Shown here: positions 386 through 18,245 of the stretch, piece after piece
Layout of the letters: each line of letters starts with the position of its first letter
How positions within the stretch are numbered: position 1 is the first letter of the stretch
NCBI GenBank assembly: GCA_016217925.1
Contig: JACRFK010000003.1
Coordinates: 8,364 to 72,363, forward strand
Source: Candidatus Kaiserbacteria bacterium
GTDB lineage: Bacteria; Patescibacteriota; Minisyncoccia; Phycocordibacterales; UBA2100
Reading direction: 5' to 3'
Length of the DNA: 64,000 nucleotides
The notes under the pieces: model-generated
Told to the model about the DNA's origin: nothing
The model's database searches: none
What the model saw: only the letters and a program-made list of their open reading frames with translations
Position numbers and translations under genes: made by a program

Positions 386-1072
386 TCACTGACCGAGTCG
401 CCGCTCGCGTGCCGCGTACTCTTTGAGGACCGCTTCAAGATCCGCCTTCGTAAATGCGGGCCAGTGTGTTTTCAGGAAGAAGAGTTCGCTGTATGCGCTC
501 TGCCACAAAAGGAAATTAGAGAGCCGCTGTTCGCCGCCCGTCCGGATGATAAGGTCGGGATTGGGCATACCGTTCGTCCACAGGTGCTTTGCGAGCGACT
601 CCTCGGTAATTGCCTCGTTCGCTTCTTGCGCTGCACGGGCCGCATGCGTTATCTCCGCGTGGCTCCCGTATGAAAGACATACCCACACTGTCAGGCGGGG
701 TTCTCCGGGATTTTTTGCTTCGACATCGCGCATCGCTTCTTGAAGTGACGGGGAGAAACGCTCTATCTGGCCGACGAAGCGCACCGCGATGTTCTCTTGC
801 GCGAATTTCTTCATGCGCTCCCGTATCGTGGATTCGAATATTTCCATGAGGTACGAGACCTCTTCTCTGCTACGACTCCAGTTTTCAGTCGAAAATGCGT
901 ACACGGCCATGTGCTGTATCCCGAGGTCGCGCGCGGCGTAAGCGATTGATTCCACATTGTTCATTCCCCGGCGGTGACCTTCGAAAGAGGGGAGCGCGTT
1001 CTCTTTGGCCCACCTGCGATTACCGTCGAGTATGATTCCTATGCATCGGGGTATGTTGTTTTTGTCGCTCAT
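386..1072 (-). CDS. uppS: Undecaprenyl-diphosphate synthase (cis-isoprenyl transferase)
   Basis: DGNRRWA motif, ...RTGGEQRLSNFLLWQSAYSELFF...; length 228 aa. Confidence 0.9.
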   Translation of the reverse strand: MSDKNNIPRCIGIILDGNRRWAKENALPSFEGHRRGMNNVESIAYAARDLGIQHMAVYAFSTENWSRSREEVSYLMEIFESTIRERMKKFAQENIAVRFVGQIERFSPSLQEAMRDVEAKNPGEPRLTVWVCLSYGSHAEITHAARAAQEANEAITEESLAKHLWTNGMPNPDLIIRTGGEQRLSNFLLWQSAYSELFFLKTHWPAFTKADLEAVLKEYAARERRLGQ

Positions 1073-1401: not shown

Positions 1402-2235
1402 ATGAGCCGCACTTCTTTCGCGCCGGGCAAGATAATTCTATCCGGAGAGTACGGAGCGCTCTTTGGCCGTGCGGGTATTGCGGTCCCTTCACGCTTCGGC
1501 GTACGTGCGACATTCGACGAAGACTCTGCTCTCGGACGAATCGAGATACTTTGGGAGAGCAACGAACAATGGCTGCCGTACGTCGAAAGAATAGTTGCCG
1601 CGTTCGAGGAAAGGAACAGCGCTTTCTCGGGCAGACTTACCATCAATTCAGATGTTCCAATAGGCAAGGGGATGGGCTCGTCAACTGCGCTTACTGTCGC
1701 CGTCGCGCTCTCTCTCATCGGTGATTCGCGCGAGATGACCCTTCACATCGAAAATACTCTCAGTCCCGGGAACAGCGGTTTCGACTTCGCCGTTATTTGG
1801 CAAGGTACTCCGATACTGTATAGAAAGGGTGAGGTACAGCTCATCGAGCTGCCCGCGAAACTTCTCCGGGATGCCGTACTTATCGACACGGGGGTTCCTG
1901 GAGAACCTACAAACGAACTCGTTGCATGGATGCGAGGCCGGGAACCGGACATCTGGGAGCATTTGGACACTATCGGCACTTGCACCGAGCGACTTATGCG
2001 GGGTGAACCTTTCGATATAGTCATGCGCGACCATCATAAAGCGCAGGTTGCGCTTGGCGTGGTGCCGCCGGAGGCACAACAGCTTATCGCAGCTATTGAA
2101 TCCGCGGGTGGTGCGGGAAAGGTTATCGGCGCAGGCAGCCGCGCGGGTGGCGCGGGCATGGTCCTGGCATTGGGTGATGAAAAAACGATTGGAGACATTG
2201 CGCGAAAATGGCACATGCCCACAATGACTCCATGA
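1402..2235 (+). CDS. GHMP-family kinase, first gene of the mevalonate operon (probable phosphomevalonate kinase or second mevalonate-type kinase)
   Basis: PGKIILSGEYGALFG N-terminus and PIGKGMGSSTALTVAVALSL GHMP motif II; its stop overlaps the start of the next gene as ATGA. Confidence 0.7.
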   Translation: MSRTSFAPGKIILSGEYGALFGRAGIAVPSRFGVRATFDEDSALGRIEILWESNEQWLPYVERIVAAFEERNSAFSGRLTINSDVPIGKGMGSSTALTVAVALSLIGDSREMTLHIENTLSPGNSGFDFAVIWQGTPILYRKGEVQLIELPAKLLRDAVLIDTGVPGEPTNELVAWMRGREPDIWEHLDTIGTCTERLMRGEPFDIVMRDHHKAQVALGVVPPEAQQLIAAIESAGGAGKVIGAGSRAGGAGMVLALGDEKTIGDIARKWHMPTMTP

Positions 2236-3203
2236 AAAAGATAGTGGTTTCAGCGCCGGGGAAACTCATGCTCTTGGGAGAGCATGCGGTCGTATATAAC
2301 CACTCGTGTATCGTCACGGCAGTTGGGCAGCGAATGTTCGTAACGCTTGAGCTACTGCCCGAACCAACGTTCGAACTCGAAGCGTCTGATGTAGAAGTGG
2401 CAGGATATAAAAAACGATTCGCAAGTTTGGGAGAAGGCGATATCCCAAAGGGAGCAAGGTTTGTTGAAATGGCAGTGAAGAACTTTACAAAAAGGTATCC
2501 GTTGAAAGGTGGAGTCCGAATCACTACAAAATCAGAGTTTTCTTCGTTGTTTGGTTTTGGTTCGTCTTCCGCCTCAACAGTCTGCGTTATCAAAGGGTTG
2601 GCAGAACTAACAAATACAAACCTAAGTAGCAAAGAAATATTTGAGCTAGCCTATAAAACGGTCCTTGATGTACAGGGAAAGGGTTCCGGTTTCGACGTCG
2701 CGGCGGCAATATACGGTAGGACACTTTATTTTGTCACCGGCGGAAAAGTAATCGAGCCTATTGCGTTGGACGAGCTCCCCCTTGTCGTCGGCTACACCGG
2801 GGTGAAGGCCGATACAGTGAGCTTGATTAATGCGGTCGCCGAAAAGGCTTTCCGACATCCAAAACGTATTGAAGTCATCTATACTCAGATCGGAGACATG
2901 GTCGACGAAGCTCACGCTGCATTGAAAGAAAGAAATTGGCCACTTGTGAGCGAGCTCATGGATTTCGATCAGGGCATGTTAGAGAGTCTTGGTGTCAGCA
3001 GCCAAAGGCTTGCCGGAATGATACACGCCGCGCGTGATGCAGGAGCGTGGGGCGCAAAACTTTCGGGAGCCGGCGGAGGCGACTGTATGATAGCCCTCGT
3101 CTCTCGTGAAAAAAAACAAGCCGTTTCTGAAGCGATTACGAAAGTAGGCGGACAAGTCATCGACGTGGCAACAAACGTGGAAGGCGTTAGAATCGAACTA
3201 TGA
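2232..3203 (+). CDS. mvk: Mevalonate kinase
   Basis: APGKLMLLGEHAVVY and GFGSSSASTV motifs; ATGA overlap with both the upstream and downstream genes. Confidence 0.85.
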   Translation: MKKIVVSAPGKLMLLGEHAVVYNHSCIVTAVGQRMFVTLELLPEPTFELEASDVEVAGYKKRFASLGEGDIPKGARFVEMAVKNFTKRYPLKGGVRITTKSEFSSLFGFGSSSASTVCVIKGLAELTNTNLSSKEIFELAYKTVLDVQGKGSGFDVAAAIYGRTLYFVTGGKVIEPIALDELPLVVGYTGVKADTVSLINAVAEKAFRHPKRIEVIYTQIGDMVDEAHAALKERNWPLVSELMDFDQGMLESLGVSSQRLAGMIHAARDAGAWGAKLSGAGGGDCMIALVSREKKQAVSEAITKVGGQVIDVATNVEGVRIEL

Positions 3204-4177
3204 AAGCTACCGCAACGGCACCCTCAAATATCGCTTTTATTAAGTATTGGGGACGCAAAGATGAAACGCTGCGTCTTCCCGAGAACGGAAGCTTGTCAAT
3301 GAATTTGAGTGCTCTACAGACGACCACGACTGTCGAGTTCTCACCGGATTATACCGAGGACCGTATTGAGATAAACGGCACGCGAGAACCAAACGAAAGC
3401 GGCCGAGCCGTTAAGCATTTAGATCGCGTGAGAGCATTGGCAAAAATTTCGGATTTCGCAAAGGTGGTAACCAAAAATAATTTTCCTACAGGCACCGGAC
3501 TTTCCTCATCCGCCTCGGGATTTGCGGCACTAACCGTTGCGGCTGCCAGCGCAGCGGGACTACAGCTTTCCGAGAAAGACCTGTCTATTTTGGCTCGACA
3601 AGGTTCGGGGTCTGCGTGTCGTTCGATATCCGATGGATTTGTAGAGTGGCTTGACGGGGATACATCTGATACCTCATATGCAACATCTCTGTATCCGCCG
3701 GACTATTGGGATTTAGTCGACGTTGTCGCAGTTGTAAGTGAAGGAAAAAAGGATGTCTCTACGTCCGAGGGACAAAAGGTGGTGGGTTCGAGCCCGTTCT
3801 TTCCTGTACGAAGAGCACACATAAAAGAAAAATTGGAGCAGGCAAAGACGTTACTCGCATCAAGAAACTTCCCAGAGTTTGGGGAACTGATCGAAACTGA
3901 AGCGCTGGAACTTCACGCGGTAATGCTCACCTCAAGACCTCCCCTCATCTATTGGACCTCCGGTACGCTCACCATCATGAAACTCTGTAAGAAATGGAGA
4001 ACTGAAGGACTGCAAGTTTACTTTACAATCAACACGGGCCAAGACATTCATCTCATTTGTGAACGAAAAAACCGCGAACGCGTGAAAAGCAAGTTGGCAG
4101 ATGTCGAAGGGGTAAAAGAAGTCATTGTAAATTTTCCCGCCGTTGGGGCAAGAATATCCGACGGGCACTTATTTTAA
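3200..4177 (+). CDS. mvaD: Diphosphomevalonate (or phosphomevalonate) decarboxylase
   Basis: APSNIAFIKYWGRKD signature and GTGLSSSASGFAAL motif. Confidence 0.85.
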   Translation: MKATATAPSNIAFIKYWGRKDETLRLPENGSLSMNLSALQTTTTVEFSPDYTEDRIEINGTREPNESGRAVKHLDRVRALAKISDFAKVVTKNNFPTGTGLSSSASGFAALTVAAASAAGLQLSEKDLSILARQGSGSACRSISDGFVEWLDGDTSDTSYATSLYPPDYWDLVDVVAVVSEGKKDVSTSEGQKVVGSSPFFPVRRAHIKEKLEQAKTLLASRNFPEFGELIETEALELHAVMLTSRPPLIYWTSGTLTIMKLCKKWRTEGLQVYFTINTGQDIHLICERKNRERVKSKLADVEGVKEVIVNFPAVGARISDGHLF

Positions 4178-4180
4178 GGT

Positions 4181-5347
4181 ATGGACTTGCGGAATTTTCC
4201 TGAAGAGCTCGATGCGGCGGGCCGCGTCTCAAAGCGGCGCTCTATCATCGAACAGCAACTGAACGTCGAGCTCGGCGCGCTTACGATCAGGCCAGAACAG
4301 ATCGGGACCGCAGATGAACAGAATTGCGAGCAGATGTTCGGCGCGGTCCCCGTACCTGTCGGGCTCGCAGGCCCGCTTCGCATCACCTTTAGTTCGGGAG
4401 AAACACACGACGATATCTACCTCCCGCTTGCAACGACCGAAGGCGCGCTCGTGGCGAGCGTCAATCGAGGCTGCAAGGCGCTGCGCGAAGCGGGCGGCGT
4501 CCGCGCGACGTCCGAATATGTCGGCATGACAAGGTCAATTGCGTTTGAAGTGAAAGATGCGGAAGCGGCTTCAGAGAAAATCCATGAGCTCGAATCTGCA
4601 TGGCAAAAAGTTGCCGAGGCGACGAGTAGCCACTTGAAGATACTTTCTTACGACGTTGATACGAAAGATGATGTGTTGTTTCTAACGATAGCGGCAGATA
4701 CCGATGAGGCGATGGGTATGAATATGGTGACTATCGCAGCGCAGGCAGTGGGGGAGTTCATCTCAAAAGAATTGAACATGCAGCTTCTCACGGTTGCAGG
4801 AAATGTGGATAGCGACAAAAAGCCAAGCATGCGGACAAAAACGCAGGGACGCGGGTATCGCGTGAGCGTTGAAGCCACGTTGCCCGAGGCCGTCATCCGG
4901 GAAGTCTTGAAATCGAGCGCGGACGCGCTGCTCAAAACCGCACGGGCGAAATTGGACATCGGGTCGGACATCGCGGGAGCCTTGGGGAAAAACCTGCACG
5001 TCGCGAATACCGTCGCCGCTCTCTACCTTGCGACGGGGCAGGACGCGGCGCATGTGGTGGAAGGCTCACTTGCGGACACGGCGGTGAGCAAACATAAAGA
5101 CGGCATCCGTATCAAAGTCGAGCTTCCCGCGCTGCTTGTCGGCATCCGCGGCGGCGGCACCAATCTTCCCGCACAGAAACAGTGTTTGGGTTTGGTGCTT
5201 CTTGAGAAAACAAAGCTCAGGCCGTCTACACAGCTTGCGGAGACTATTGCGGGGGCGGTCCTCGCGGGGGAGCTGTCGCTTCTCGCGGCCCAATCGACGA
5301 ACACACTCGCACGCGCACACCGCACGCTCGCGCGCAAAGGACGCTGA
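4181..5347 (+). CDS. hmgA: HMG-CoA reductase (class-I-like catalytic domain)
   Basis: ...PVGLAGPL..., ...LATTEGALVASVNRGC..., ...DAMGMNMV... conserved blocks. Confidence 0.9.
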   Translation: MDLRNFPEELDAAGRVSKRRSIIEQQLNVELGALTIRPEQIGTADEQNCEQMFGAVPVPVGLAGPLRITFSSGETHDDIYLPLATTEGALVASVNRGCKALREAGGVRATSEYVGMTRSIAFEVKDAEAASEKIHELESAWQKVAEATSSHLKILSYDVDTKDDVLFLTIAADTDEAMGMNMVTIAAQAVGEFISKELNMQLLTVAGNVDSDKKPSMRTKTQGRGYRVSVEATLPEAVIREVLKSSADALLKTARAKLDIGSDIAGALGKNLHVANTVAALYLATGQDAAHVVEGSLADTAVSKHKDGIRIKVELPALLVGIRGGGTNLPAQKQCLGLVLLEKTKLRPSTQLAETIAGAVLAGELSLLAAQSTNTLARAHRTLARKGR

Positions 5348-5386
5348 CGTTCCAGACTTCTCGTGAATTTGCTATACTCACTTTTA

Positions 5387-6418
5387 ATGAAGCATTCGGC
5401 AATTCTCGGCTTTGGCGTCTATCTGCCCAAGTACCGTATCAGGACCTCCGATATCGCGCGTCACTGGCAGCAGGACGCGGATGCGCTTGTCGCGAGCCTC
5501 GGCGTACATCAAAAATCCGTCGCGGGTCGCGACGAAGACACCTTTACAATGGCGTTCGAGGCGGCCCGCCTCGCGCTCGATATGTCGGGCGTTCCTTCCT
5601 CCCACGTGTCGGCGATCTTCGTCGGATCCGAATCCCATCCGTATGCGGTGAAACCAACGAGCGGCATGTTGGTCGCGGCACTCACACTCGATTCACTCTC
5701 CCATGCCGCTGATCTCGAATTCGCATGCAAGGCGGGTACGGCAGGCCTCCAGATGGTGGACAGTTTCGTGCGGAGCGGCCAGGTCCGTTACGGCCTCGCT
5801 ATCGGGACGGACACCGCGCAGGGCAAACCCGGCGATGCCCTCGAGTACACCGCAGCAGCGGGCGCGGCCGCCTTTGTGGTCGGGCCCGATACACACAAGA
5901 ACGCACTCTGTCGTATCGAAAAGACACTCTCGTTCACTACCGATACACCCGATTTCTGGCGGGCAAAAGGCGAGCAGTATCCGCGGCACGCGGGGCGCTT
6001 CACCGGCGAGCCGGGCTACTTTGAGCACGTTCGCGAGACCATCCGTGCGGCCCAAGATGCGTGGAAGTTGGACCTTGCGGAGATTGGCCACGTCGTATTC
6101 CACATGCCGAATGCAAAGTTCCCCATGCGCATCGCCAAAGAGTTCGGCATTACAAAGGGGCAGATGAGTGCGGGGTTTGTGGTACCCCAGATTGGCAACA
6201 CCTACAGCGCGTGCTCGCTCATCGGGCTTGTCTCCGTGCTCGAAAAAGTCAAAAAAGGGCAACGGATTCTCGTCGTTTCATACGGCTCGGGTTCCGGATG
6301 CGACGCCATCTTGATGACGGCTCAGAAAGACGGGAAGCCCCTTCCTGTCGATGTACGTGAACCTACGTACTTAGATTACAGCCAGTACCTGGAACACACC
6401 GGAGCACTTTCAGTATAA
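5387..6418 (+). CDS. HMG-CoA synthase, archaeal-type (thiolase superfamily)
   Basis: ~343 aa; GFGVYLPKYRI start and thiolase-fold condensing-enzyme blocks; lies between HMGR and the thiolase as in archaeal clusters. Confidence 0.8.
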   Translation: MKHSAILGFGVYLPKYRIRTSDIARHWQQDADALVASLGVHQKSVAGRDEDTFTMAFEAARLALDMSGVPSSHVSAIFVGSESHPYAVKPTSGMLVAALTLDSLSHAADLEFACKAGTAGLQMVDSFVRSGQVRYGLAIGTDTAQGKPGDALEYTAAAGAAAFVVGPDTHKNALCRIEKTLSFTTDTPDFWRAKGEQYPRHAGRFTGEPGYFEHVRETIRAAQDAWKLDLAEIGHVVFHMPNAKFPMRIAKEFGITKGQMSAGFVVPQIGNTYSACSLIGLVSVLEKVKKGQRILVVSYGSGSGCDAILMTAQKDGKPLPVDVREPTYLDYSQYLEHTGALSV

Positions 6419-6570: not shown

Positions 6571-7695
6571 ATGCAGCAAGACATCTTCTTGGTAGGGTCC
6601 GGGCTCACACGATTTGGCGAATGGTGGGACAAAAGTCTCCGGGACCTCATGCGCGAAGCGATCGAAGCGGCACTCGAGTCGTCGGGACTCCAAGCACAAG
6701 ACGTCGACCTCATCATTGTCGCAAACATGCTTGCCGAGGTTACGAACAACCAGGCTCATATGGCGGCGCTCGCATCGTCGCTCCTTCCGCACCACCCTCC
6801 TGCACTGCGCGTCGAGGCGGCGTGCGGATCGGGCGCGCTTGCGGTCAATACGGCGTGCGCATTTCTCGAGAGCGGAAGGGCAAAAACAGTACTCGTCGTC
6901 GGAGTGGAAAAGATGACCGACGCTTCGGCCGATGCCATTTCGCAGGCACTCATGGGGGCGGCCGACAGCGAGCTCGACGCTCCGTCGGGGCTCACCTTTC
7001 CGGGAATCTTCGGCCTCATTGCGAAAAGGTACATGTACGAATTCGGTCTCACACGCGAGCAACTCAGCATCGTCAGCTCGGTACACCACAAGCACGCGAC
7101 GGAAAACGCTTTTGCGCAGTTCCGCTACGAGCTTTCACCTGAAGCGGTAAGCGCGAGCCCGCTCGTGTCAGACCCGCTGCGTCTCTTTGATTGTTCGCCC
7201 ATCTCCGACGGAGCCGCCGCGTGCGTCCTTTCGACCGTACACAGAAGCGGTATGCGGCTTGCCGCGAGCCAGATTGCGAGCGATACGCTCAGCATCACGC
7301 AGCGCCCGACCATCGTGAGCTTCCCCGCGACGCGCGCGGCGATGGAGCTGGCACTCTGCGAAGCGGACATAACACGAAAGGACATTCACGCCCTCGAAAC
7401 GCACGATTGTTTCTCAATCGCCGCCGTTATCAATATGGAGGACCTCGGGTTTGCGAAGGAAGGCGAGGGGATACGCATCTATGAAGACCTGCACGCGGGG
7501 CACGCGCCGATGTTCGTCAACATGGGCGGAGGTCTGAAGGCGTGCGGCCACCCCGTCGCGGCGACGGGCATCAAGCAGCTGATAGATGTGAGCAAGAGTC
7601 TCACACGCGGCAGGGCGCGGTACGGTCTCGCACACAATTTCGGCGGTGCGGGCGCCACCTGCGGCATTCACGTCCTCGAAAATACACACGTATGA
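6571..7695 (+). CDS. Acetyl-CoA acetyltransferase (thiolase), archaeal-type
   Basis: 374 aa; ...VEAACGSGALAV... and C-terminal ...NFGGAGATCG... thiolase blocks. Confidence 0.85.
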   Translation: MQQDIFLVGSGLTRFGEWWDKSLRDLMREAIEAALESSGLQAQDVDLIIVANMLAEVTNNQAHMAALASSLLPHHPPALRVEAACGSGALAVNTACAFLESGRAKTVLVVGVEKMTDASADAISQALMGAADSELDAPSGLTFPGIFGLIAKRYMYEFGLTREQLSIVSSVHHKHATENAFAQFRYELSPEAVSASPLVSDPLRLFDCSPISDGAAACVLSTVHRSGMRLAASQIASDTLSITQRPTIVSFPATRAAMELALCEADITRKDIHALETHDCFSIAAVINMEDLGFAKEGEGIRIYEDLHAGHAPMFVNMGGGLKACGHPVAATGIKQLIDVSKSLTRGRARYGLAHNFGGAGATCGIHVLENTHV

Positions 7696-7756
7696 ATCCC
7701 GCCCTTTCAGATTCTCCATATTGCAGCATGCTGATTATTAAGATAAAAAGAGCGGG

Positions 7757-8668
7757 ATGAATAACTCCGCTCCCATAGTGCAGCGTGCGCAGAAGCGCGA
7801 ACGGGACAAATTCCTCCCCGGCACGGTCGTTTCGTTCACGACGCTCTCGCATCCACCCGCACGCTTCGGGCCGAGGCCCCGCATGGTCGGCCTCGTCGAG
7901 CTTCAAAACGGGCGGCGCGTGCTCGCGCCGCTTGTCATGGATGCGCCGTACATCGGACAAACGGTACGCCCGCGCATGCGCCTTTCGCACGTGACCCATG
8001 AAGGCCTCCGCGTATACGAAGTCGCGTACGATGAGGCGCCCCAGGTCGCCGTGACGGAGGCGTTTTCCCGCTACCTGCTCGCTTTTACGGGCCCTTCCGG
8101 AGTCGGGAAATCAACGATAACGAAGATGCTCGCGCATGCGTGCTCCGACTACGTCGCGAAAGTACCCATCCTTACCACCCGTGCGCCGAAGCCGGGCGAC
8201 GACGGGGAGTATCTATACACGACTTCTGCTGAATTCGACCGCCTGAAGAAAACGGGGAAAATCGTCGCGATGACGGACATATCGTTTTCGAGCGAAGACT
8301 GGCGGTACGGGTACCGCGCCGCCGACATCGAGGAGATTTGGTCCGCGAGCAAAATACCGGTCGTCGTGACCGAAATGGAATTGCTCCAGGGTCTCGCCCA
8401 TCACTATGGCCGTCGTGCCGTCCTTTCGTTCGGGCTCCTCCCGCCCGGCAAGAGCAAGCGTGCGCGGCTCAGTCAACTGCTCCACCGGCTCCGTTCGCGC
8501 GGGCGTGAATCCGAAGCGCACATCCGCGACCGGCTCAAGAATGCGGAACGTGACCTCGCGTTCTTCGGAGAGCGCAAAGACCTCTTTGACCATATGGTGG
8601 TGAACGAAGACTTGTCTGCCCTTGTCGCCTCATTGAAAGAAAAAGTGCCCGGACTCTCGGGCGCTTGA
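7757..8668 (+). CDS. Fusion protein: N-terminal DUF35-like OB-fold domain (partner of the thiolase/HMGCS complex) plus C-terminal guanylate-kinase-like P-loop kinase domain
   Basis: N-terminal ...GTVVSFTTLSHPP...RMVGLVELQNGRRVLAPLV...GQTVRPRM... resembles DUF35 OB-folds; C-terminal GPSGVGKST Walker A, ...ILTTRAPKPGDDGEYLYTTSAEFDRL... and ...YGY... resemble guanylate kinase. Confidence 0.65.
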   Translation: MNNSAPIVQRAQKRERDKFLPGTVVSFTTLSHPPARFGPRPRMVGLVELQNGRRVLAPLVMDAPYIGQTVRPRMRLSHVTHEGLRVYEVAYDEAPQVAVTEAFSRYLLAFTGPSGVGKSTITKMLAHACSDYVAKVPILTTRAPKPGDDGEYLYTTSAEFDRLKKTGKIVAMTDISFSSEDWRYGYRAADIEEIWSASKIPVVVTEMELLQGLAHHYGRRAVLSFGLLPPGKSKRARLSQLLHRLRSRGRESEAHIRDRLKNAERDLAFFGERKDLFDHMVVNEDLSALVASLKEKVPGLSGA

Positions 8669-8686: not shown

Positions 8687-9241
8687 ATGGAACCTCTTTC
8701 CGCGGAAGAAGTAGTAGTGCTCGTGGATGAAGAGAACAATGTGCTCGGCACACAAGATAAATCTGCAGTACACGGCGCGACGACACCGCTGCACCGGGGC
8801 TTTTCACTTTTCCTTTTCGACCGCAGAGGGCATCTCTTGCTCCAGCAGCGCAGCCATGTGAAAAAAACGTGGCCGCTCGTCTGGTCCAATTCGGTGTGCG
8901 GACACCCGACGCTCGGCGAGACCAACGTCGATGCTGCGAAGCGCCGGTTGTCCCATGAGCTCCGCATGAGTGCCACGCTTATCGAGGAGGTCGCACCGTA
9001 TCGCTACTGCTTCACGCGCGATGGCGTGATGGAGAATGAGATATGCCCGATACTGTTGGGTCAAACTCTCGACCAACCAAACCCTAATGGTGAGGAAGTC
9101 GAGGCGACGCGTTGGGTGCCATGGCAGGAATTCCTGCACGAGCTCGACGAGAAGCCGGGATTCTACTCGCCCTGGTGCGAAGAAGAGGCGCGGATACTCG
9201 ACGGATTGCCGCGCTTCCACGAAGTAATCCCCACGAAGTAG
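8687..9241 (+). CDS. idi: Isopentenyl-diphosphate delta-isomerase, type 1 (Nudix)
   Basis: HRGFSLFLFDRRGHLLLQQRS...WPLVWSNSVCGHP...GE... matches IDI-1. Confidence 0.85.
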   Translation: MEPLSAEEVVVLVDEENNVLGTQDKSAVHGATTPLHRGFSLFLFDRRGHLLLQQRSHVKKTWPLVWSNSVCGHPTLGETNVDAAKRRLSHELRMSATLIEEVAPYRYCFTRDGVMENEICPILLGQTLDQPNPNGEEVEATRWVPWQEFLHELDEKPGFYSPWCEEEARILDGLPRFHEVIPTK

Positions 9242-9410: not shown

Positions 9411-11843
9411 GTGAAAAGAGCCCACCGCCAAAAAAAGACGGACGCTCACAAAAAGCTGGTTATTCGAATGGAAGAAGCGGGAATGGACGATATCGCCCTG
9501 GTCGGCGGCAAAAATGCCAGCCTCGGTGAGATGCTCTCCGCGCTCACGAAAAAAGGCATTCGCGTGCCTTCGGGTTTTATCATTACGACCGATGCCTATC
9601 GTGAATTCATCCGCGGGGCGGGACTCGAAGACCTTATCCGCTTCAATCTCGCGCACTTGAAACGGCACGACATTCATGCGCTCGAACATGCAAGTCAGGT
9701 CATCAGGGAAGCAATAGAGGGTGCGCCTCTGCCCAAAGAACTCGAGCATCAGGTCGCCGAGGCGTATGTCTCGATGGAGAAACAGTACGGCAAGCACATC
9801 GACGTCGCCATCCGCTCCTCGGCGACTGCCGAAGATTTGCCGGGCGCATCATTCGCCGGCCAACAAGACACATACCTCGGCGTGCGCGGGCGCGATCATG
9901 TGTTCAAGGCGGTGCGTTCATGTTTCGGGTCGCTCTTTACCGCACGCGCGATTTCATACCGTCACGACAAAGGCTTCGACCACATGGATGTCGCGCTTTC
10001 GGTCGCTATCCAGCGGATGGTCCGTAGCGACTTGGGCGCTTCGGGCGTCGCTTTCACGCTCGACACCGAAACGGGCTTCCGTGACGTCGTCCTCATCACT
10101 GGTACGTGGGGTCTCGGCGAACTCCTCGTGCAGGGACAGGTTGTGCCGGATGAATTTCTCGTCGCAAAGAAAATGCTGGGTCACGCGCCGCTCCCCATCA
10201 TCGGCAAACGCCGCGGCAAAAAAGATATCAAAATGGTATACGCCAAGCGCGGACACGCAGGTCCGCTCCAGGTCGTGAAGAATAAGAAGGAAGACCGGCG
10301 CCGCTTCGTCTTGAACGACAAACAAATTATCGAACTCGCAAAAGCGGCCGTACTCATCGAAAAGCACTACACCAAGATACGCGGCACTCCTTCACCCATG
10401 GACGTGGAGTGGGCGCTCGACGGCCGCACCAATGAGCTCTTCATCCTGCAAGCTCGCCCCGAGACCGTGCAGGTGAGCCGCGACACCGAGAAAATTAAGG
10501 AGTACATCCGCCGCGAAGAGGGCACCCCTATCGTGCGCGGGCTCTCGGTGGGCAACAAGATCGTGACCGGTACGGTGCGCATCATCAACGACGTCCGCGA
10601 CATGCAGGCGCTTTTGCCGGGCGAAGTCTTGGTCACCGAGATGACTGACCCGGACTGGGAACCTATCATGAAAAAAGCCGCCGCCATCGTCACCGAAAAG
10701 GGCGGCCGTACCTCGCACGCCGCGATCGTCTCCCGCGAGCTCGGGCTCACCGCCATCGTGGGGGCCGAAAAAGCGACACAGATACTGCACACCGGTCAGC
10801 TCGTCACGATTGATACGACCTCGTCGGAAGGACTCGTCTTTGACGGCGTCTTGGGTTTCAGCGTGCGCGAGACGGAACTCGGTGCGCTTCCCAAAACCAA
10901 GACCAAGATAGCGATGAACATCGCCACCCCCGACACCGCATTTGAAAAATCATTCTTACCCAACGACGGTGTGGGGCTTGCCCGCGAGGAATTCATTATC
11001 GCCGGCTCGGTGGGCGTGCACCCGCTTGCGCTTATCCACTACGACGAGCTCCCGGAGAATATGCAGCTCCAAGTCCGTAAGAAAACGCGCGGCTGGGACG
11101 ACAGGCTCGAATACTACGTGGACAATCTCGCCTTCGGCATCGCGAAGATCGCGACGGCTTTCTATCCGAAAAAAGTCATCGTCCGCTTTTCCGATTTCAA
11201 GAGCAACGAATACCGCTCGCTCCTGGGCGGTGAGCGCTTTGAGCCGGTCGAAGAAAATCCGATGCTCGGCTGGCGCGGCGCTTCCCGCTACTACGACCCC
11301 AAATTCAAGCAGGCATTTCTCCTCGAGTGCCGCGCGATGCGCAAAGTCCGCGAGACGATGGGGCTGCGCAACGTCATCCCGATGGTGCCTTTCTGCCGCA
11401 CGCTTGAAGAGGGGAGGAATGTGCTCGAAGTGATGGCCGAAGGCGGCCTCAAGCGGGGGAAGAACGGACTCAAGGTCATCGTCATGTGCGAGATTCCCTC
11501 CAACGCGATTTTGGCCGAAGAGTTTCTCAAGATTTTCGACGGCATGTCTATCGGTTCCAACGACCTCACTCAGCTCACGCTCGGCCTCGACCGTGATTCC
11601 GGTATCGTGAATCGTGTAGCCGATGAGAACGACCCGGCGGTGAAAAAGCTCATTGCGGATGTCATCAAAGTCTGTCTGAAGAGTAAAAAGTATGTCGGCA
11701 TTTGCGGCCAGGGTCCGTCCGATCACCCTTCGTTCGCGAAATTCCTCGTGGAGCAGGGGATCGAGAGCATGTCGCTCAATCCGGATTCCATCATCAAAAC
11801 AAAAATAGCCGTCGCCAAGGTGGAGAAGGGGATGAGAAAATGA
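9411..11843 (+). CDS. ppsA: Phosphoenolpyruvate synthase (pyruvate, water dikinase)
   Basis: 810 aa; ...LVGGKNASLGEM... N-terminus, ...GGRTSHAAIVSRELG... phosphohistidine motif and C-terminal PEP-utilising domain. The start is more likely the internal ATG at 9468 (MEEAGMDD...). Confidence 0.9.
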   Translation: MKRAHRQKKTDAHKKLVIRMEEAGMDDIALVGGKNASLGEMLSALTKKGIRVPSGFIITTDAYREFIRGAGLEDLIRFNLAHLKRHDIHALEHASQVIREAIEGAPLPKELEHQVAEAYVSMEKQYGKHIDVAIRSSATAEDLPGASFAGQQDTYLGVRGRDHVFKAVRSCFGSLFTARAISYRHDKGFDHMDVALSVAIQRMVRSDLGASGVAFTLDTETGFRDVVLITGTWGLGELLVQGQVVPDEFLVAKKMLGHAPLPIIGKRRGKKDIKMVYAKRGHAGPLQVVKNKKEDRRRFVLNDKQIIELAKAAVLIEKHYTKIRGTPSPMDVEWALDGRTNELFILQARPETVQVSRDTEKIKEYIRREEGTPIVRGLSVGNKIVTGTVRIINDVRDMQALLPGEVLVTEMTDPDWEPIMKKAAAIVTEKGGRTSHAAIVSRELGLTAIVGAEKATQILHTGQLVTIDTTSSEGLVFDGVLGFSVRETELGALPKTKTKIAMNIATPDTAFEKSFLPNDGVGLAREEFIIAGSVGVHPLALIHYDELPENMQLQVRKKTRGWDDRLEYYVDNLAFGIAKIATAFYPKKVIVRFSDFKSNEYRSLLGGERFEPVEENPMLGWRGASRYYDPKFKQAFLLECRAMRKVRETMGLRNVIPMVPFCRTLEEGRNVLEVMAEGGLKRGKNGLKVIVMCEIPSNAILAEEFLKIFDGMSIGSNDLTQLTLGLDRDSGIVNRVADENDPAVKKLIADVIKVCLKSKKYVGICGQGPSDHPSFAKFLVEQGIESMSLNPDSIIKTKIAVAKVEKGMRK

Positions 11844-17216: not shown

Positions 17217-18245
17217 ATGCCCGAACCTATGGCATTCTCATTTTCTCCGAAACTCGGCATCGATCTCGGCACGACGACCGTGCTCGTCTTCGTGCCGGGC
17301 AAGGGAATCGTCCTCAATGAGCCGTCCGTCGTCGCTGTGTCCGTGAAGGACAACAAGATCCTCGCCGTAGGCAACAACGCCAAAGAAATGGTCGGCCGAA
17401 CGCCCGGAGAGATCATCGCGTATCGTCCGATGAAAGACGGCGTCATCGCGGATTACCGTGTGACCGAAGCGATGTTGCGATACTACATCAAGAAATCGCT
17501 CGGCAAGTGGAACCTCTTCAAACCGGAGGTCATGATAAGCGTACCGGCAGGGGTCACATCGACGGAGCGAAGAGCTGTCGTCGAAGCGGCGACCAAAGCG
17601 GGCGCGCGCGAAGCGTATGTGGTCAAAGAGCCGATCTTGGCGGCGATAGGCGCGGGCATCCCGATACACGAGGCGCGCGGGCACATGGTCGTGGACATCG
17701 GAGGCGGCACGACCGATGTCGCGGTCATTTCGCTCGGCGGCATCGTTGCGTCAACTTCCGTGAAGTGCGCCGGAAACGCGATTGACCGCGCCATTGCCGA
17801 CTACATCAAGAAAACGTCCAATCTGGGCATCGGAGAAAAGATGGCGGAAGAGGTAAAAATACAGATAGGCTCGGCGGTGCCCGTAGACGATGAGCTCACC
17901 ATGATGGTGAAAGGCAGGGACCATCTCACCGGGTTGCCGCGCTCCATAGAAGTCGGTACCAACGAAGTCGTGCGTGCGATAGGAAAAGAATTGCGCACGA
18001 TAATCAACGCCATGAAAGATGTACTGCAGGAAACCCCGCCGGAGTTGGCCGCCGATATTATCGACAACGGCATCATCATGACAGGCGGCTCATCGCTGTT
18101 GCGTAATCTGCCCGAGCTCGTCTTCCGCCGCACGGGAGTGAAAGCGCGCGTCGCCAAAGATGCGCCCTACTGTGTGGCAAAGGGGACAGGCGAAGCCCTG
18201 AAGCACCTGGAAGCGTACAAAAAAGCAATTATTTCGAAACGTTGA
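17217..18245 (+). CDS. mreB: Actin-like rod-shape protein, MreB paralog (Mbl-like)
   Basis: ...GIDLGTTTVLVFVPGKGIVLNEPSVVA..., ...VVDIGGGTTDVAVIS... actin/Hsp70 fold motifs. A second, canonical mreB lies at 23754. Confidence 0.85.
   Translation: MPEPMAFSFSPKLGIDLGTTTVLVFVPGKGIVLNEPSVVAVSVKDNKILAVGNNAKEMVGRTPGEIIAYRPMKDGVIADYRVTEAMLRYYIKKSLGKWNLFKPEVMISVPAGVTSTERRAVVEAATKAGAREAYVVKEPILAAIGAGIPIHEARGHMVVDIGGGTTDVAVISLGGIVASTSVKCAGNAIDRAIADYIKKTSNLGIGEKMAEEVKIQIGSAVPVDDELTMMVKGRDHLTGLPRSIEVGTNEVVRAIGKELRTIINAMKDVLQETPPELAADIIDNGIIMTGGSSLLRNLPELVFRRTGVKARVAKDAPYCVAKGTGEALKHLEAYKKAIISKR

What the first reader, a model, noticed from the sequence alone, without database searches (positions are those of the whole stretch)
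7757..8668. DUF35-like OB-fold scaffold fused to a guanylate-kinase-like P-loop domain inside the mevalonate operon
In archaea the thiolase and HMG-CoA synthase form a complex with a small DUF35 (OB-fold/Zn-ribbon) protein. Here the ORF directly after the thiolase has a DUF35-like OB-fold N-terminus but continues into a ~200-residue P-loop kinase with GPSGVGKST, ILTTRAPKPGDDGEYLYTTSAEFDRL and YGY motifs typical of guanylate kinase. Two GHMP kinases are also present, but some lineages use a non-GHMP enzyme for the second phosphorylation. Animal phosphomevalonate kinase is itself an NMP-kinase-fold P-loop enzyme. This fusion could therefore be either a true guanylate kinase that has hitch-hiked onto the scaffold protein, or an isoprenoid-phosphate kinase tethered to the thiolase/HMGCS complex for channeling.
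Basis: partly seen in the sequence, partly recalled or inferred. Interest (0 to 1): 0.68.

Follow-up and report, generated by a model that had tools for sequence, protein, structure and literature searches.

The report
Scaffold-tethered kinase completing a mevalonate pathway
A small scaffold protein of the first two mevalonate-pathway enzymes is fused here to a kinase that looks like guanylate kinase but has lost the residues that read guanine, and it is the best candidate for a pathway kinase that genome surveys of these bacteria could not find.

Summary
ORF 7757-8668 (+) is one uninterrupted 303-aa protein. Residues 1-100 are a zinc-ribbon-less DUF35 OB domain, followed by a flexible linker and a ~200-aa guanylate-kinase-fold P-loop domain. 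The fusion is not a frameshift artefact: more than 100 protein clusters, named Peregrinibacteria/Peribacteria where named, have the same ~303-aa architecture directly after the archaeal-type thiolase.

It is very unlikely to be the housekeeping Gmk. ATP- and phosphate-binding residues are kept. The guanine-reading triad (Ser34/Glu69/Ser-Thr80), invariant in 77 canonical Gmks, is fixed as Ile/Ala/Tyr. A complete relative genome also carries a separate 200-aa gmk.

All eight relatives whose locus includes the decarboxylase have one GHMP kinase and a decarboxylase with the wild-type phosphomevalonate-decarboxylase signature. The one complete genome has no annotated PMK or IPK. Other CPR operons have a stand-alone 100-aa DUF35, two GHMP kinases and a Lys21 decarboxylase, and no GK-like domain.

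Best reading: a new isoprenoid-phosphate kinase tethered to the thiolase/HMG-CoA synthase complex. Isopentenyl phosphate to IPP is favoured; phosphomevalonate kinase is the rival. No activity has been tested. This window is atypical: its decarboxylase was replaced by a lower-GC MVK+decarboxylase cassette.

The parts
7757..8056 (+). N-terminal mini-DUF35 module (aa 1-100): one helix (aa 5-17) plus an OB fold (aa 22-93), with no zinc ribbon
   Evidence: PF01796 scores 39.2 bits on this piece alone. A profile of 11 family N-termini finds as best PDB match the DUF35 subunit of the archaeal thiolase/HMGCS complex (6esq_E/6et9), E 1e-6, aligned to its OB part 51-125. hhalign against the stand-alone 100-aa DUF35 of other CPR operons gives 96.9% probability, end to end. 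There is no Cys in aa 1-103.
8042..8065 (+). Inter-domain linker (aa 96-103)
   Evidence: This is the least conserved stretch of the family alignment (top-residue frequency 0.12-0.42 at aa 96-102). pLDDT is below 50 at aa 98-103.
8066..8668 (+). Guanylate-kinase-fold P-loop kinase domain (aa 104-303) plus stop codon; proposed isoprenoid-phosphate kinase
   Evidence: PF00625 scores 44.2 bits. TIGR03263 scores 75.8 against a cutoff of 160. Foldseek's best PDB match is yeast GK 1gky, TM 0.84 normalised to the target, 26% identity. Identity to E. coli Gmk is about 27%.
8090..8116 (+). P-loop GPSGVGKST (aa 112-120)
   Evidence: G112, P113, S114, G115, V116, G117 and K118 are invariant in 63 family members.
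8162..8326 (+). Acceptor-binding (NMP-binding) subdomain, aa 136-190. Phosphate ligands are kept (R142, K145, Y152, Y184). Guanine ligands are replaced (I138, A171, Y186). A family-specific 4-residue insertion lies at aa 178-181.
   Evidence: Alignments with yeast Guk1 and E. coli Gmk give these equivalences. Among 77 canonical Gmks, position 34 is Ser or Thr in 77/77, position 69 is Glu in 77/77 and position 80 is Thr in 77/77.
8282..8302 (+). Window-specific substitutions P176S, S177F and R182W in the family-specific loop
   Evidence: These columns are 92%, 93% and 98% conserved in the family. The 95%-identical homologue P0001 keeps P, S and R.
8450..8542 (+). LID region with conserved arginines (R235, R244, R246, R248, R250, R259)
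   Evidence: These are invariant or nearly invariant in the family. R244, R248 and R259 align with yeast R131, R135 and R146.
6571..7695 (+). Archaeal-type acetoacetyl-CoA thiolase, the expected partner of the DUF35 module
   Evidence: NF004720 scores 372 bits and NF053570 AcCoTHIOL_METTL 330 bits. The gene is adjacent to the fusion in every related locus.
5363..6418 (+). Archaeal-type HMG-CoA synthase
   Evidence: NF003274 scores 424 bits (cutoff 244) and TIGR00748 scores 382.7 (cutoff 353).
4181..5347 (+). Class-I HMG-CoA reductase
   Evidence: PF00368 scores 328.9 bits and TIGR00533 scores 295.7 bits.
3200..4177 (+). MDD-family decarboxylase, part of a swapped-in cassette. Arg occupies the Lys21 site and Gln the Met/His site, so the substrate (MVAP or MVAPP) is ambiguous.
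   Evidence: The best PDB match is the Anaerolinea phosphomevalonate decarboxylase 6n0x/6n0z at 303 bits, against 232 bits for the best DMD. Identity is 30-34% to the relatives' decarboxylases and 51-91% to those of typical CPR operons.
2208..3203 (+). Canonical-looking mevalonate kinase (331 aa), absent from all nine related fusion loci that cover this part of the operon; part of the swapped-in cassette
   Evidence: TIGR00549 scores 197 bits (cutoff 163). tblastn finds no homologue in L001/L003, and no second GHMP kinase is called in L081-L089. GC is 46-51% here against 55-62% in the flanks.
1402..2235 (+). Divergent MVK-like GHMP kinase (277 aa), the only GHMP kinase in the relatives' operons
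   Evidence: TIGR00549 scores 76 bits. All PDB matches are mevalonate kinases. Identity to the Peribacteria homologues is 41-43%. The orthologue in Ca. Peribacter riflensis is annotated K00869 MVK.
8687..9241 (+). Type-1 isopentenyl-diphosphate isomerase
   Evidence: NF002995 scores 200.5 bits (cutoff 127).
386..1072 (-). Undecaprenyl-diphosphate synthase (cis-prenyltransferase), the consumer of IPP
   Evidence: PF01255 scores 260.6 bits. The gene is part of or adjacent to the operon in most related loci. It also lies next to the stand-alone GK-like kinases.

Best explanation
The protein fuses the CPR-type mini-DUF35 to a kinase that descends from guanylate kinase and has changed its phosphate acceptor. 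The mini-DUF35 is a 100-residue, zinc-ribbon-less OB protein. Its archaeal and bacterial homologues bridge acetoacetyl-CoA thiolase and HMG-CoA synthase.

The kinase keeps the P-loop, the LID arginines and the four residues that hold the acceptor's phosphate. It should therefore still transfer the gamma-phosphate of ATP onto a phosphomonoester to make a diphosphate. The three residues that read the guanine base are replaced by Ile, Ala and Tyr, so the acceptor is not GMP.

I propose that the acceptor is isopentenyl phosphate. The pathway in this lineage would then be mevalonate -> mevalonate-5-P (the divergent GHMP kinase) -> isopentenyl-P (a phosphomevalonate decarboxylase) -> IPP (this kinase). 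It would be a non-homologous replacement of the amino-acid-kinase-family IPK.

The OB module would dock the kinase onto the thiolase/HMGCS particle, so the enzymes of the first and last steps would be made and held together in fixed stoichiometry.

Shown: the domain architecture, its conservation, the residue pattern, the operon contexts and the existence of a separate gmk in a relative. Inferred: catalytic competence, the identity of the acceptor, and complex formation.
For: 1. Not Gmk.
- In 77 canonical Gmks, position 34 is Ser/Thr in 77/77, position 69 is Glu in 77/77 and position 80 is Thr in 77/77. The family has Ile (99%), Ala (86%) and Tyr (100%) at these positions.
- The phosphate- and ATP-binding residues R38, R41 (as K), Y50, Y78, R131, R135 and R146 are kept.
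- TIGR03263 scores 75.8 against a cutoff of 160.
- The complete genome of Ca. Peribacter riflensis has a stand-alone 200-aa gmk (gene _213, 157.7 bits). It also has the 312-aa fusion (gene _643) directly after the thiolase.

2. A kinase step is missing.
- That complete genome has one MVK (K00869) and one MVD (K01597). It has no K00938 (PMK) and no K06981 (IPK). Its authors called the pathway 'near-complete'.
- In nine related fusion loci the operon holds only one GHMP kinase.

3. The missing step is probably IPK.
- In 8 of 8 relatives' decarboxylases the motifs are KYWGN and GSTEGH. These match wild-type Anaerolinea PMD (6n0x) at the two positions that differ in the deposited variant 6n0z (N->K, H->M).
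- These decarboxylases are 38-42% identical to that PMD and 28-33% identical to E. faecalis DMD.
- PMC9254496 identifies 6n0x as PMD and reports that PMD was converted to DMD by mutagenesis. Dellas 2013, Table 4, lists Lys21 as a conserved phosphate-binding residue of MDDs that MPDs lack.

4. Complementary operon types.
- 80 loci of other CPR bacteria have thiolase, then a stand-alone 100-aa DUF35, then a second GHMP kinase, MVK, and a decarboxylase that mostly has Lys21. None has a GK-like domain.

5. The link to isoprenoid genes does not depend on the fusion.
- Stand-alone 194-224-aa members with the same Ile/Ala/Tyr signature exist.
- In 3 of 4 contexts examined they sit beside undecaprenyl-PP synthase. 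One of these also has a trans-prenyl-diphosphate synthase. No MVA genes are nearby.

6. The N-terminal module is the DUF35 scaffold.
- The best PDB match is the DUF35 chain of the archaeal thiolase/HMGCS complex. hhalign gives 96.9% probability to the CPR mini-DUF35.
- The tripartite HMGS/ACAT/DUF35 architecture is conserved in bacteria, and an HMGS-DUF35 fusion is known.
Against: - No enzymology exists. The substrate assignment rests on residue patterns and gene content.
- In this window the PMD-type decarboxylase has been replaced by one with Arg at the Lys21 site and Gln at the Met/His site. This type co-occurs with two GHMP kinases in other CPR operons. Here the pathway could run through mevalonate diphosphate, and an IP kinase would be dispensable or only used for salvage.
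- The window's own kinase has three substitutions at positions that are 92-98% conserved, in the putative acceptor loop: P176S, S177F and R182W. This could mean relaxed constraint.
- The kinase occupies the gene position held by the second GHMP kinase (the presumed PMK) in other CPR operons. That is a positional argument for PMK.
- The family conserves several charged residues in the acceptor subdomain (E180, R182, R187) that might suit the carboxylate of phosphomevalonate.
- The complete Peribacter genome encodes an orphan 265-aa ProB-like amino-acid-kinase-fold protein with no proA or proC. It could be a cryptic IPK.
- I inferred the PMD/DMD determinants from the sequence difference between two PDB entries. 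The primary paper could not be read.
- Only one complete genome was checked for gmk, PMK and IPK.
Confidence: 0.45

Rival explanations
1. The GK-like domain is a phosphomevalonate kinase (mevalonate-5-P -> mevalonate-5-PP). It would be a third, independent PMK type after the GHMP PMK and the animal P-loop PMK, and the MDD-like enzymes would act as diphosphomevalonate decarboxylases.
For: - The chemistry (phosphate onto a phosphomonoester) and the missing-step argument are the same as for IPK.
- The domain sits where other CPR operons encode the second GHMP kinase, right after DUF35.
- The window's own decarboxylase has a basic residue (Arg) at the Lys21 site, like DMDs.
- Conserved E180/R182/R187 could bind a carboxylate and a hydroxyl.
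- KEGG and TIGRFAM call the decarboxylases MVD.
Against: - 8 of 8 relatives' decarboxylases carry Asn and His at the two positions that distinguish wild-type Anaerolinea PMD from its engineered variant. They are also closer to PMD than to DMD.
- Stand-alone family members lie next to prenyltransferases with no MVA genes nearby, and some are attributed to a gammaproteobacterial symbiont. A PMK would have no obvious substrate there.
Confidence: 0.25
2. It is a kinase for another phosphomonoester of isoprenoid or cell-envelope metabolism, for example dimethylallyl, geranyl or farnesyl phosphate, or a sugar or lipid-carrier phosphate. It would serve salvage or homeostasis rather than the main pathway.
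For: - Stand-alone members are translationally coupled to a 212-217-aa histidine-phosphatase-family gene. They sit beside UPP synthase, a trans-prenyl synthase, and Epimerase_2/Wzy-type envelope genes.
- Hydrophobic replacements (Ile, Ala, Tyr) line the former base pocket.
- No FPP synthase is annotated in the complete Peribacter genome.
Against: This does not explain why genomes with the fusion lack any annotated enzyme for the second phosphorylation. It also does not explain why the domain is fused to the scaffold of the first two MVA enzymes in more than 100 clusters.
Confidence: 0.15
3. The domain no longer acts as a metabolic kinase. It would be a nucleotide- or metabolite-binding regulatory or structural module of the thiolase/HMGCS complex, in the way MAGUK GK domains became protein-binding modules.
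For: - GK folds have been converted to non-enzymatic modules before (PDB 4f4j title).
- The window's copy carries unusual substitutions in the acceptor loop.
Against: The P-loop is invariant, and the LID arginines and phosphate-binding Arg/Lys/Tyr residues are conserved across the family down to 38% identity. That is the pattern expected of an active phosphotransferase.
Confidence: 0.08
4. It is a genuine guanylate kinase that became fused to the scaffold protein by chance.
For: - Pfam Guanylate_kin scores above its gathering threshold.
- KEGG K00942 scores 103.7 bits against a threshold of 60 in Peribacter.
- JGI names many family members 'guanylate kinase'.
- The fold matches GMP-bound GK.
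Against: - The guanine-binding Ser34, Glu69 and Thr/Ser80 are all replaced and fixed.
- The score is below the NCBIfam equivalog cutoff.
- A separate canonical gmk exists in a complete relative genome.
- The family forms a discrete clade, at E 1e-33 to 1e-72 against about 1e-13 for canonical Gmks.
Confidence: 0.04

Closest known systems
Guanylate kinase (Gmk/Guk1, EC 2.7.4.8; PF00625, TIGR03263)
   Same: The three-part fold (core, NMP-binding, LID) is the same, with TM 0.84 to 1gky. The P-loop, LID arginines and acceptor-phosphate ligands (R38, R41 as K, Y50, Y78) are kept.
   Different: The guanine-recognition residues Ser34, Glu69 and Ser/Thr80 are Ile, Ala and Tyr. There is a 4-residue insertion before the YGY motif and a 6-7-residue insertion before the LID. 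The equivalog score is half the cutoff. The domain is fused to an OB domain, encoded in an MVA operon, and co-exists with a real gmk in a relative.
[quoted passage not shown]
   Same: The OB fold is homologous: it is the best PDB match, E 1e-6. The gene lies directly after the thiolase and HMGS genes.
   Different: [quoted passage not shown] It carries a 200-residue kinase at its C-terminus. Its scaffold role here has not been tested.
Stand-alone 100-aa DUF35 of other CPR mevalonate operons (e.g. L096 7652-7951)
   Same: It has the same length and layout (helix plus OB, no zinc ribbon) and the same position after the thiolase. hhalign gives 96.9% probability, end to end.
   Different: It is not fused. 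It is followed by a second GHMP kinase instead of a GK-like domain.
Isopentenyl phosphate kinase (amino-acid-kinase family, K06981) of archaea and Chloroflexi
   Same: The proposed reaction (IP + ATP -> IPP) is the same. So is the pathway logic: it co-occurs with MVK and a phosphomevalonate decarboxylase, with no PMK.
   Different: The fold is unrelated (P-loop GK fold against AAK fold). The activity is not demonstrated.
Animal phosphomevalonate kinase (PF04275, NMP-kinase-like P-loop) and Thermoplasma mevalonate-3-phosphate 5-kinase
   Same: Both are precedents for recruiting a non-GHMP kinase to a mevalonate-pathway phosphorylation. The statements about these two enzymes rest on my own knowledge.
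   Different: There is no detectable sequence relationship (PF04275 was not hit at E<=0.1). The parent family, lineage and domain architecture all differ.
MAGUK guanylate-kinase-like domains
   Same: They are GK folds that no longer act on GMP.
   Different: MAGUK domains lost the catalytic apparatus (own knowledge). This family keeps an invariant P-loop and LID.

Membership tests
Guanylate kinase (EC 2.7.4.8) | GK fold with core, NMP-binding and LID parts; Pfam PF00625 above its gathering score | tested here: met
   PF00625 scores 44.2 bits against 25.2. Foldseek gives 1gky, E 5e-16, TM 0.84 normalised to the target.
Guanylate kinase (EC 2.7.4.8) | P-loop GxxGxGK[ST] and LID arginines | tested here: met
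   GPSGVGKS is invariant. R244, R248 and R259 align with yeast R131, R135 and R146.
Guanylate kinase (EC 2.7.4.8) | Guanine-recognition residues Ser34, Glu69 and Ser/Thr80 (yeast numbering) | tested here: not met
   The window and family have Ile (or Pro, depending on the alignment), Ala and Tyr. In 77 canonical Gmks, position 34 is Ser/Thr, position 69 is Glu and position 80 is Thr in 77/77 each.
Guanylate kinase (EC 2.7.4.8) | Score above the NCBIfam equivalog cutoff (TIGR03263, 160.45 bits) | tested here: not met
   The score is 75.8 bits.
Guanylate kinase (EC 2.7.4.8) | It is the genome's GMP kinase, with no other gmk present | tested here: inconclusive
   There is no other gmk in the 64-kb window, and the rest of this genome is not available. 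The complete genome of Ca. Peribacter riflensis has a separate 200-aa gmk as well as the fusion.
Guanylate kinase (EC 2.7.4.8) | GMP + ATP -> GDP + ADP activity | not testable with these tools
   This needs an enzyme assay.
DUF35 scaffold of thiolase/HMG-CoA synthase complexes | C-terminal OB fold (PF01796) | tested here: met
   PF01796 scores 36.7-39.2 bits against 27.1. The family profile hits the 6esq_E DUF35 chain at E 1e-6.
DUF35 scaffold of thiolase/HMG-CoA synthase complexes | [quoted passage not shown] | tested here: not met
   There is no Cys in aa 1-103 and no DUF35_N hit. The same is true of the stand-alone CPR DUF35 proteins.
DUF35 scaffold of thiolase/HMG-CoA synthase complexes | Encoded next to archaeal-type thiolase and HMG-CoA synthase | tested here: met
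   This holds in the window. It also holds in all related fusion loci whose sequence reaches the upstream genes.
DUF35 scaffold of thiolase/HMG-CoA synthase complexes | Physically bridges the thiolase and HMGS subunits | not testable with these tools
   This needs co-purification or a structure.
Isopentenyl phosphate kinase (AAK family, K06981) | Amino-acid-kinase fold (PF00696) with a catalytic His | tested here: not met
   The fold is GK, and there is no AA_kinase hit. The protein can only be a functional analogue, not a member.
Isopentenyl phosphate kinase (AAK family, K06981) | Occurs with MVK and a phosphomevalonate decarboxylase, without PMK | tested here: met
   This is met in relatives: 8 of 8 decarboxylases carry the PMD signature, the operon has one GHMP kinase, and the complete genome has no K00938. 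It is ambiguous in this window because of the swapped decarboxylase and the extra MVK.
Isopentenyl phosphate kinase (AAK family, K06981) | IP + ATP -> IPP activity | not testable with these tools
   This needs an enzyme assay.
Phosphomevalonate kinase (GHMP type TIGR01220/NF040957; animal type PF04275) | Sequence membership in either PMK family | tested here: not met
   Neither family is among the Pfam or NCBIfam hits of the fusion at E<=0.1.

The most novel reading that the evidence does not exclude
Peregrinibacteria-type CPR bacteria would run the phosphomevalonate-decarboxylase route, which a 2018 survey attributed among bacteria only to Chloroflexi. They would finish it with a previously unrecognised class of isopentenyl-phosphate kinase derived from guanylate kinase. 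In these organisms that kinase would be covalently tethered, through the DUF35 scaffold, to the thiolase/HMG-CoA synthase complex, so that the enzymes of the first and last steps of IPP synthesis sit in one particle. Stand-alone members next to prenyltransferases in other bacteria would make the same kinase class a wider IP-to-IPP salvage enzyme that is currently mis-annotated as gmk.
Probability: 0.35. Interest if true: 0.8.

Novelty: new variant of a known kind. Interest (0 to 1): 0.66.

Why it matters
- It offers a specific, testable candidate for the step left open when the mevalonate pathway of Peribacteria was described as 'near-complete'.
- If confirmed, it would add another independent solution to the variable lower half of the mevalonate pathway.
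- It would change the published view that CPR bacteria carry the same GHMP enzyme set as other bacteria. That view is used in arguments about the ancestral isoprenoid pathway.
- It flags a systematic mis-annotation. The family is called 'guanylate kinase' by KEGG- and JGI-type pipelines, which inflates apparent nucleotide-synthesis capacity in small genomes.
- A compact P-loop IP kinase and a natural scaffold-enzyme fusion could also be useful parts for pathway engineering.

Tried and rejected
- **Genome scan swamped.** The genome-contig scan with the family alignment was swamped by canonical gmk genes, because one search pattern was the P-loop. Only three fusion loci (L001-L003) came back.
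- **L035 is a false lead.** It looked like a full-length match in a Phycisphaerae genome. It is an ordinary 194-aa gmk preceded by an unrelated gene, and the extended alignment was spurious.
- **No IPK beside IDI.** I looked for an amino-acid-kinase-type IPK beside IDI in typical CPR operons, as Hoshino and Gaucher describe. The seven loci examined have other genes in and around that gap, such as an unidentified 177-195-aa ORF or prenyl-synthase-like ORFs, and none looks like an IPK. This complementarity test gave nothing.
- **Papers not held.** The primary papers on PMD specificity (Thomas 2019), on Haloferax PMD/IPK (VanNice 2014) and on the archaeal complex (Vögeli 2018) were unavailable. 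I inferred the PMD determinants from the two PDB sequences and from secondary citations.
- **Kentrum context uninformative.** The context of the 'Candidatus Kentrum' stand-alone homologue told nothing. A literature search on Kentron isoprenoid metabolism found nothing relevant.
- **No prior description found.** Literature searches for any earlier report of a DUF35-guanylate-kinase fusion or a GK-like IPK/PMK found none.
- **Frameshift or misassembly rejected.** The conserved single-ORF architecture rules it out.
- **Degeneration of the window's copy not established.** It deviates at 4 of 97 highly conserved columns. The family median is 2 and the maximum is 7, so it is not an outlier overall, although three of the four changes cluster in one loop.
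Full report
**1. The observation**

ORF 7757-8668 on the + strand is a single 303-codon reading frame.
- Pfam places the DUF35 OB fold (PF01796) at residues 22-74 and Guanylate_kin (PF00625) at residues 109-295. Both score above their gathering thresholds.
- The gene follows an archaeal-type thiolase and lies in an operon. In order, the operon holds a divergent GHMP kinase (1402-2235), a canonical-looking mevalonate kinase (2208-3203), an MDD-family decarboxylase (3200-4177), class-I HMG-CoA reductase, archaeal-type HMG-CoA synthase, the thiolase, the fusion and type-1 IDI. Undecaprenyl-PP synthase is encoded upstream on the other strand.
- The rest of the window encodes ordinary housekeeping genes of a small bacterial genome: MreB, PBPs, aldolase, PRPP synthetase, GMP synthase and ATP synthase. 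Overall GC is 55%.

**2. The fusion is real and conserved**

- A search of 5.8 billion proteins returned 545 homologues. The best 120 clusters are almost all 282-334 aa, and most carry both domains. Where named, they come from Candidatus Peregrinibacteria or Peribacteria, with one labelled 'Kaiserbacteria'.
- Sixty-three aligned members, down to 52% identity, share 46 invariant columns.
- The linker (aa 96-103) is the least conserved segment. It has pLDDT below 50 in an otherwise confident AlphaFold model with mean pLDDT 84.6.
- A frameshift or assembly artefact is therefore excluded.

**3. The N-terminal module**

- Residues 1-103 contain no cysteine, so the rubredoxin-like zinc ribbon of classical DUF35 proteins is absent.
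- A profile of eleven family N-termini finds, as its best match in the PDB, the DUF35 subunit of the Methanothermococcus thiolase/HMG-CoA synthase complex (6esq/6et9). The E-value is 1e-6, and the alignment covers its OB part.
- Other CPR mevalonate operons recovered from metagenomes encode a stand-alone 98-103-residue protein directly after the thiolase. It has the same helix-plus-OB layout, also without a zinc ribbon, and scores 36-57 bits on PF01796.
- hhalign matches that protein end to end with the fusion's first 92 residues at 96.9% probability.
- The N-terminus is therefore the complete CPR version of the scaffold, not a fragment.
- A 2026 structural study shows that the HMGS/ACAT/DUF35 tripartite architecture is conserved in bacteria. 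It also describes an HMGS-DUF35 fusion, so fusions of this scaffold have precedent.

**4. The C-terminal domain is a guanylate-kinase fold but not a guanylate kinase**

- Foldseek's best PDB matches are GMP-bound guanylate kinases, led by 1gky with TM 0.84 normalised to the target and 26% identity.
- Sequence similarity is weak. It is about 27% to E. coli Gmk, and PDB matches have E around 1e-10.
- The NCBIfam equivalog score is 75.8 against a cutoff of 160.
- The alignment with yeast Guk1 and E. coli Gmk gives these equivalences:

| Role | Yeast residue | Window/family residue |
|---|---|---|
| P-loop | GxxGxGK | GPSGVGK, invariant |
| Acceptor phosphate | R38, R41, Y50, Y78 | R142, K145, Y152, Y184 |
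| LID | R131, R135, R146 | R244, R248, R259 |
| Guanine recognition | Ser34 | Ile138 (99% of the family) |
| Guanine recognition | Glu69 | Ala171 (86%) |
| Guanine recognition | Ser/Thr80 | Tyr186 (100%) |

- As a control, 77 canonical Gmks from diverse bacterial phyla have Ser/Thr at position 34, Glu at 69 and Thr at 80, in 77/77 each.
- The exhaustive search of 1.84 billion representatives shows the family as a discrete group at E 1e-33 to 1e-72. Canonical Gmks begin around 1e-13.
- That group includes stand-alone 194-224-aa proteins with the same Ile/Leu/Met, Ala/Ser and Tyr signature.
- The pattern is an intact phosphotransfer machinery and phosphate site with a rebuilt, more hydrophobic base pocket. 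This is what one expects of a kinase that still phosphorylates a phosphomonoester but no longer takes GMP.

**5. A separate gmk exists**

- The window has no second gmk, but 64 kb cannot decide the matter.
- The supplementary gene table of the complete Ca. Peribacter riflensis genome lists two K00942 hits.
  - Gene _213 is a stand-alone 200-aa gmk at 157.7 bits.
  - Gene _643 is a 312-aa protein at 103.7 bits, directly after the thiolase. This is the fusion.

**6. A kinase step is missing in these genomes**

- The same table has one MVK (K00869) and one MVD (K01597). It has no PMK (K00938) and no IPK (K06981).
- The authors described the pathway as near-complete. They listed formation of mevalonate-5-P and conversion of mevalonate-5-PP, but not the step between them.
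- I examined nine related fusion loci whose kinase is 45-77% identical to the window's. The operon is always one GHMP kinase of 275-285 aa, HMGR, HMGS, thiolase and the fusion, with UPPS and IDI at one end or the other. A decarboxylase of 330-339 aa follows the GHMP kinase in eight of the nine loci, and L003 lacks one in the fetched stretch. None of the nine has a second GHMP kinase.

**7. Which step is missing**

- The window's decarboxylase matches the Anaerolinea thermophila enzyme 6n0x/6n0z best, at 303 bits against 232 for the best diphosphomevalonate decarboxylase.
- PMC9254496 identifies 6n0x as the phosphomevalonate decarboxylase with MVA5P bound. It also states that its specificity was changed to DMD by mutagenesis.
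- The two deposited sequences differ at two positions, WGN->WGK and QGH->QGM. I take these to be the main determinants. The first coincides with the Lys21 that Dellas et al. list as conserved in MDDs and replaced in MPDs.
- All eight relatives' decarboxylases read KYWGN and GSTEGH, which is the wild-type PMD state at both positions. They are 38-42% identical to the PMD and 28-33% identical to an Enterococcus DMD.
- This points to the route MVK -> PMD -> IP, which needs an IP kinase.
- The GK-like domain is the only unassigned kinase in the operon, and its chemistry fits.

**8. A complementary operon type**

- Scanning metagenomes with the window's decarboxylase returned 80 loci from other CPR bacteria.
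- Where enough sequence is present, the order is HMGR, HMGS, thiolase, mini-DUF35, a GHMP kinase of 311-363 aa, an MVK of about 324 aa, the decarboxylase, then UPPS or IDI.
- The decarboxylase has Lys at position 21 in most loci. No locus contains a GK-like domain.
- The two designs are therefore:

| Design | DUF35 | GHMP kinases | Decarboxylase |
|---|---|---|---|
| Other CPR | stand-alone | two | mostly Lys21 |
| Peregrinibacteria type | fused to a GK-like kinase | one | Asn21/His |

- This is the pattern expected if the GK-like kinase supplies the second phosphorylation.
- The literature surveyed treats CPR as having the same GHMP set as other bacteria, and treats Chloroflexi as the only bacterial users of the MPD route. 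I found no paper describing this fusion or a GK-derived IPK or PMK.

**9. Stand-alone members**

- In three of the four stand-alone contexts examined, the kinase directly follows a 212-217-aa histidine-phosphatase-family gene, overlapping it or within a few bases of it. It also lies within two genes of undecaprenyl-PP synthase.
- In one of the three a trans-prenyl-diphosphate synthase is also present. No mevalonate genes are within 10 kb.
- The fourth context, from 'Candidatus Kentrum', is uninformative.
- The association with IPP-consuming enzymes, independent of the DUF35 fusion, fits an IPP-forming or prenyl-phosphate kinase better than a phosphomevalonate kinase.

**10. This window is atypical**

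- Its backbone matches the Peregrinibacteria type. HMGR, HMGS and thiolase are 52-68% identical to the Peribacteria proteins, and the layout matches L085.
- Between the native GHMP kinase and HMGR it carries an MVK (331 aa) and a decarboxylase that are 40-65% and 51-79% identical to those of the other CPR design. The short 91%-identical contig L093 is higher still. The decarboxylase is only 30-34% identical to the relatives' PMDs.
- The segment has 46-51% GC against 55-62% in its neighbours.
- I read it as a horizontally acquired cassette that replaced the PMD. L093 shows the same cassette.
- The cassette's decarboxylase has Arg at position 21 and Gln at the His/Met position, so its substrate cannot be called.
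- The window's kinase also carries P176S, S177F and R182W at positions that are 92-98% conserved, in the family-specific loop. Its 95%-identical homologue keeps the consensus.
- In this particular genome the kinase's role may therefore be altered or under relaxed constraint. The functional inference is stronger for the family than for this copy.

**11. Caveats**

- No activity has been measured.
- Only one complete genome could be checked for gmk, PMK and IPK. That genome has an orphan 265-aa ProB-like amino-acid-kinase-fold gene without proA or proC, which might be a cryptic IPK.
- The kinase sits where the other design has its second GHMP kinase. That is a positional argument for PMK.
- The specificity determinants of the decarboxylases are inferred, because the primary paper could not be read.

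**12. Verdict**

- The 'hitch-hiking guanylate kinase' reading is very unlikely.
- The 'tethered isoprenoid-phosphate kinase' reading is supported by several independent lines of comparative evidence.
- My probabilities for the acceptor or role are: isopentenyl phosphate about 0.45, phosphomevalonate about 0.25, another prenyl or envelope phosphate about 0.15, non-catalytic about 0.08, true Gmk about 0.04.
- This is a new variant of a known kind: non-orthologous recruitment of a kinase into the variable lower mevalonate pathway, combined with a new scaffold-enzyme fusion. It is directly testable.

Noticed in passing
window 2208-4177: The 331-aa mevalonate kinase and the decarboxylase form a lower-GC block (46-51% against 55-62% in the flanks). 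Nine related fusion operons lack it. Its closest relatives are in a different CPR operon type, so it looks like a horizontally acquired cassette that replaced the native phosphomevalonate decarboxylase.
   Followed up: yes
window 8282-8302: This window's kinase has P176S, S177F and R182W at positions that are 92-98% conserved, in the family-specific acceptor loop. The changes are consistent with C-to-T transitions. A 95%-identical homologue keeps the consensus residues. This could mean relaxed constraint or altered specificity.
   Followed up: partly
L091 7870-10651; L092 650-3283; L173 5561-10060: Stand-alone members of the GK-like subfamily directly follow a 212-217-aa histidine-phosphatase-family gene, overlapping it or within a few bases. 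They sit beside undecaprenyl-PP synthase, and in L173 also beside a trans-prenyl synthase. The function of the phosphatase-kinase pair is unexplained.
   Followed up: partly
L096 7652-7954, L101 7710-8009, L105 7791-8093 and others: Other CPR mevalonate operons encode a ~100-aa DUF35 that lacks the zinc ribbon, overlapping the thiolase stop codon. It is followed by two MVK-like GHMP kinases that both score near the MVK equivalog cutoff.
   Followed up: yes
Ca. Peribacter riflensis complete genome (supplement 2 of PMC4736985), genes _735 and _544: There is an orphan 265-aa ProB-like kinase (K00931, 173.9 bits, below its threshold) with no proA or proC. There is also a 437-aa weak ArgB-like protein. 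No farnesyl-PP synthase is annotated, although UPP synthase is present.
   Followed up: partly
window 7696-7756: A 61-nt spacer separates the thiolase and the fusion here. In most relatives examined the two genes overlap by 4-8 nt. The spacer contains a CCCGC...GCGGG inverted repeat just before the start codon.
   Followed up: no
window 9411-11843: An 810-aa PEP synthase/PPDK-like gene follows IDI. The same IDI-PPS arrangement is seen in relative L085.
   Followed up: no
window 18733-19428 (-): This ORF has a weak IS200-like Y1 transposase domain (27.4 bits). A similar weak Y1_Tnp gene lies at the edge of relative locus L085.
   Followed up: no
window 17217-18245 and 23754-24833: Two MreB paralogues lie about 5.5 kb apart. 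Nearby are a PBP2-like transpeptidase (25869-27590) and a second transpeptidase (42858-44570) after MraW.
   Followed up: no
L114, L117, L120, L126 (decarboxylase genes): A minority of the other CPR decarboxylases have Val or Leu at position 21 and His at the Met/His site, which is PMD-like. In L117, the only one of these four loci long enough to show it, two GHMP kinases still accompany the decarboxylase. The lower pathway may therefore vary within CPR more than has been described.
   Followed up: no
L174 10001-10795: A 264-aa family member after HMGS and thiolase was called without the OB Pfam hit and with a 130-nt upstream gap. Its start codon is probably mis-called. HMGR, MVK and the decarboxylase are not in this locus.
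   Followed up: no
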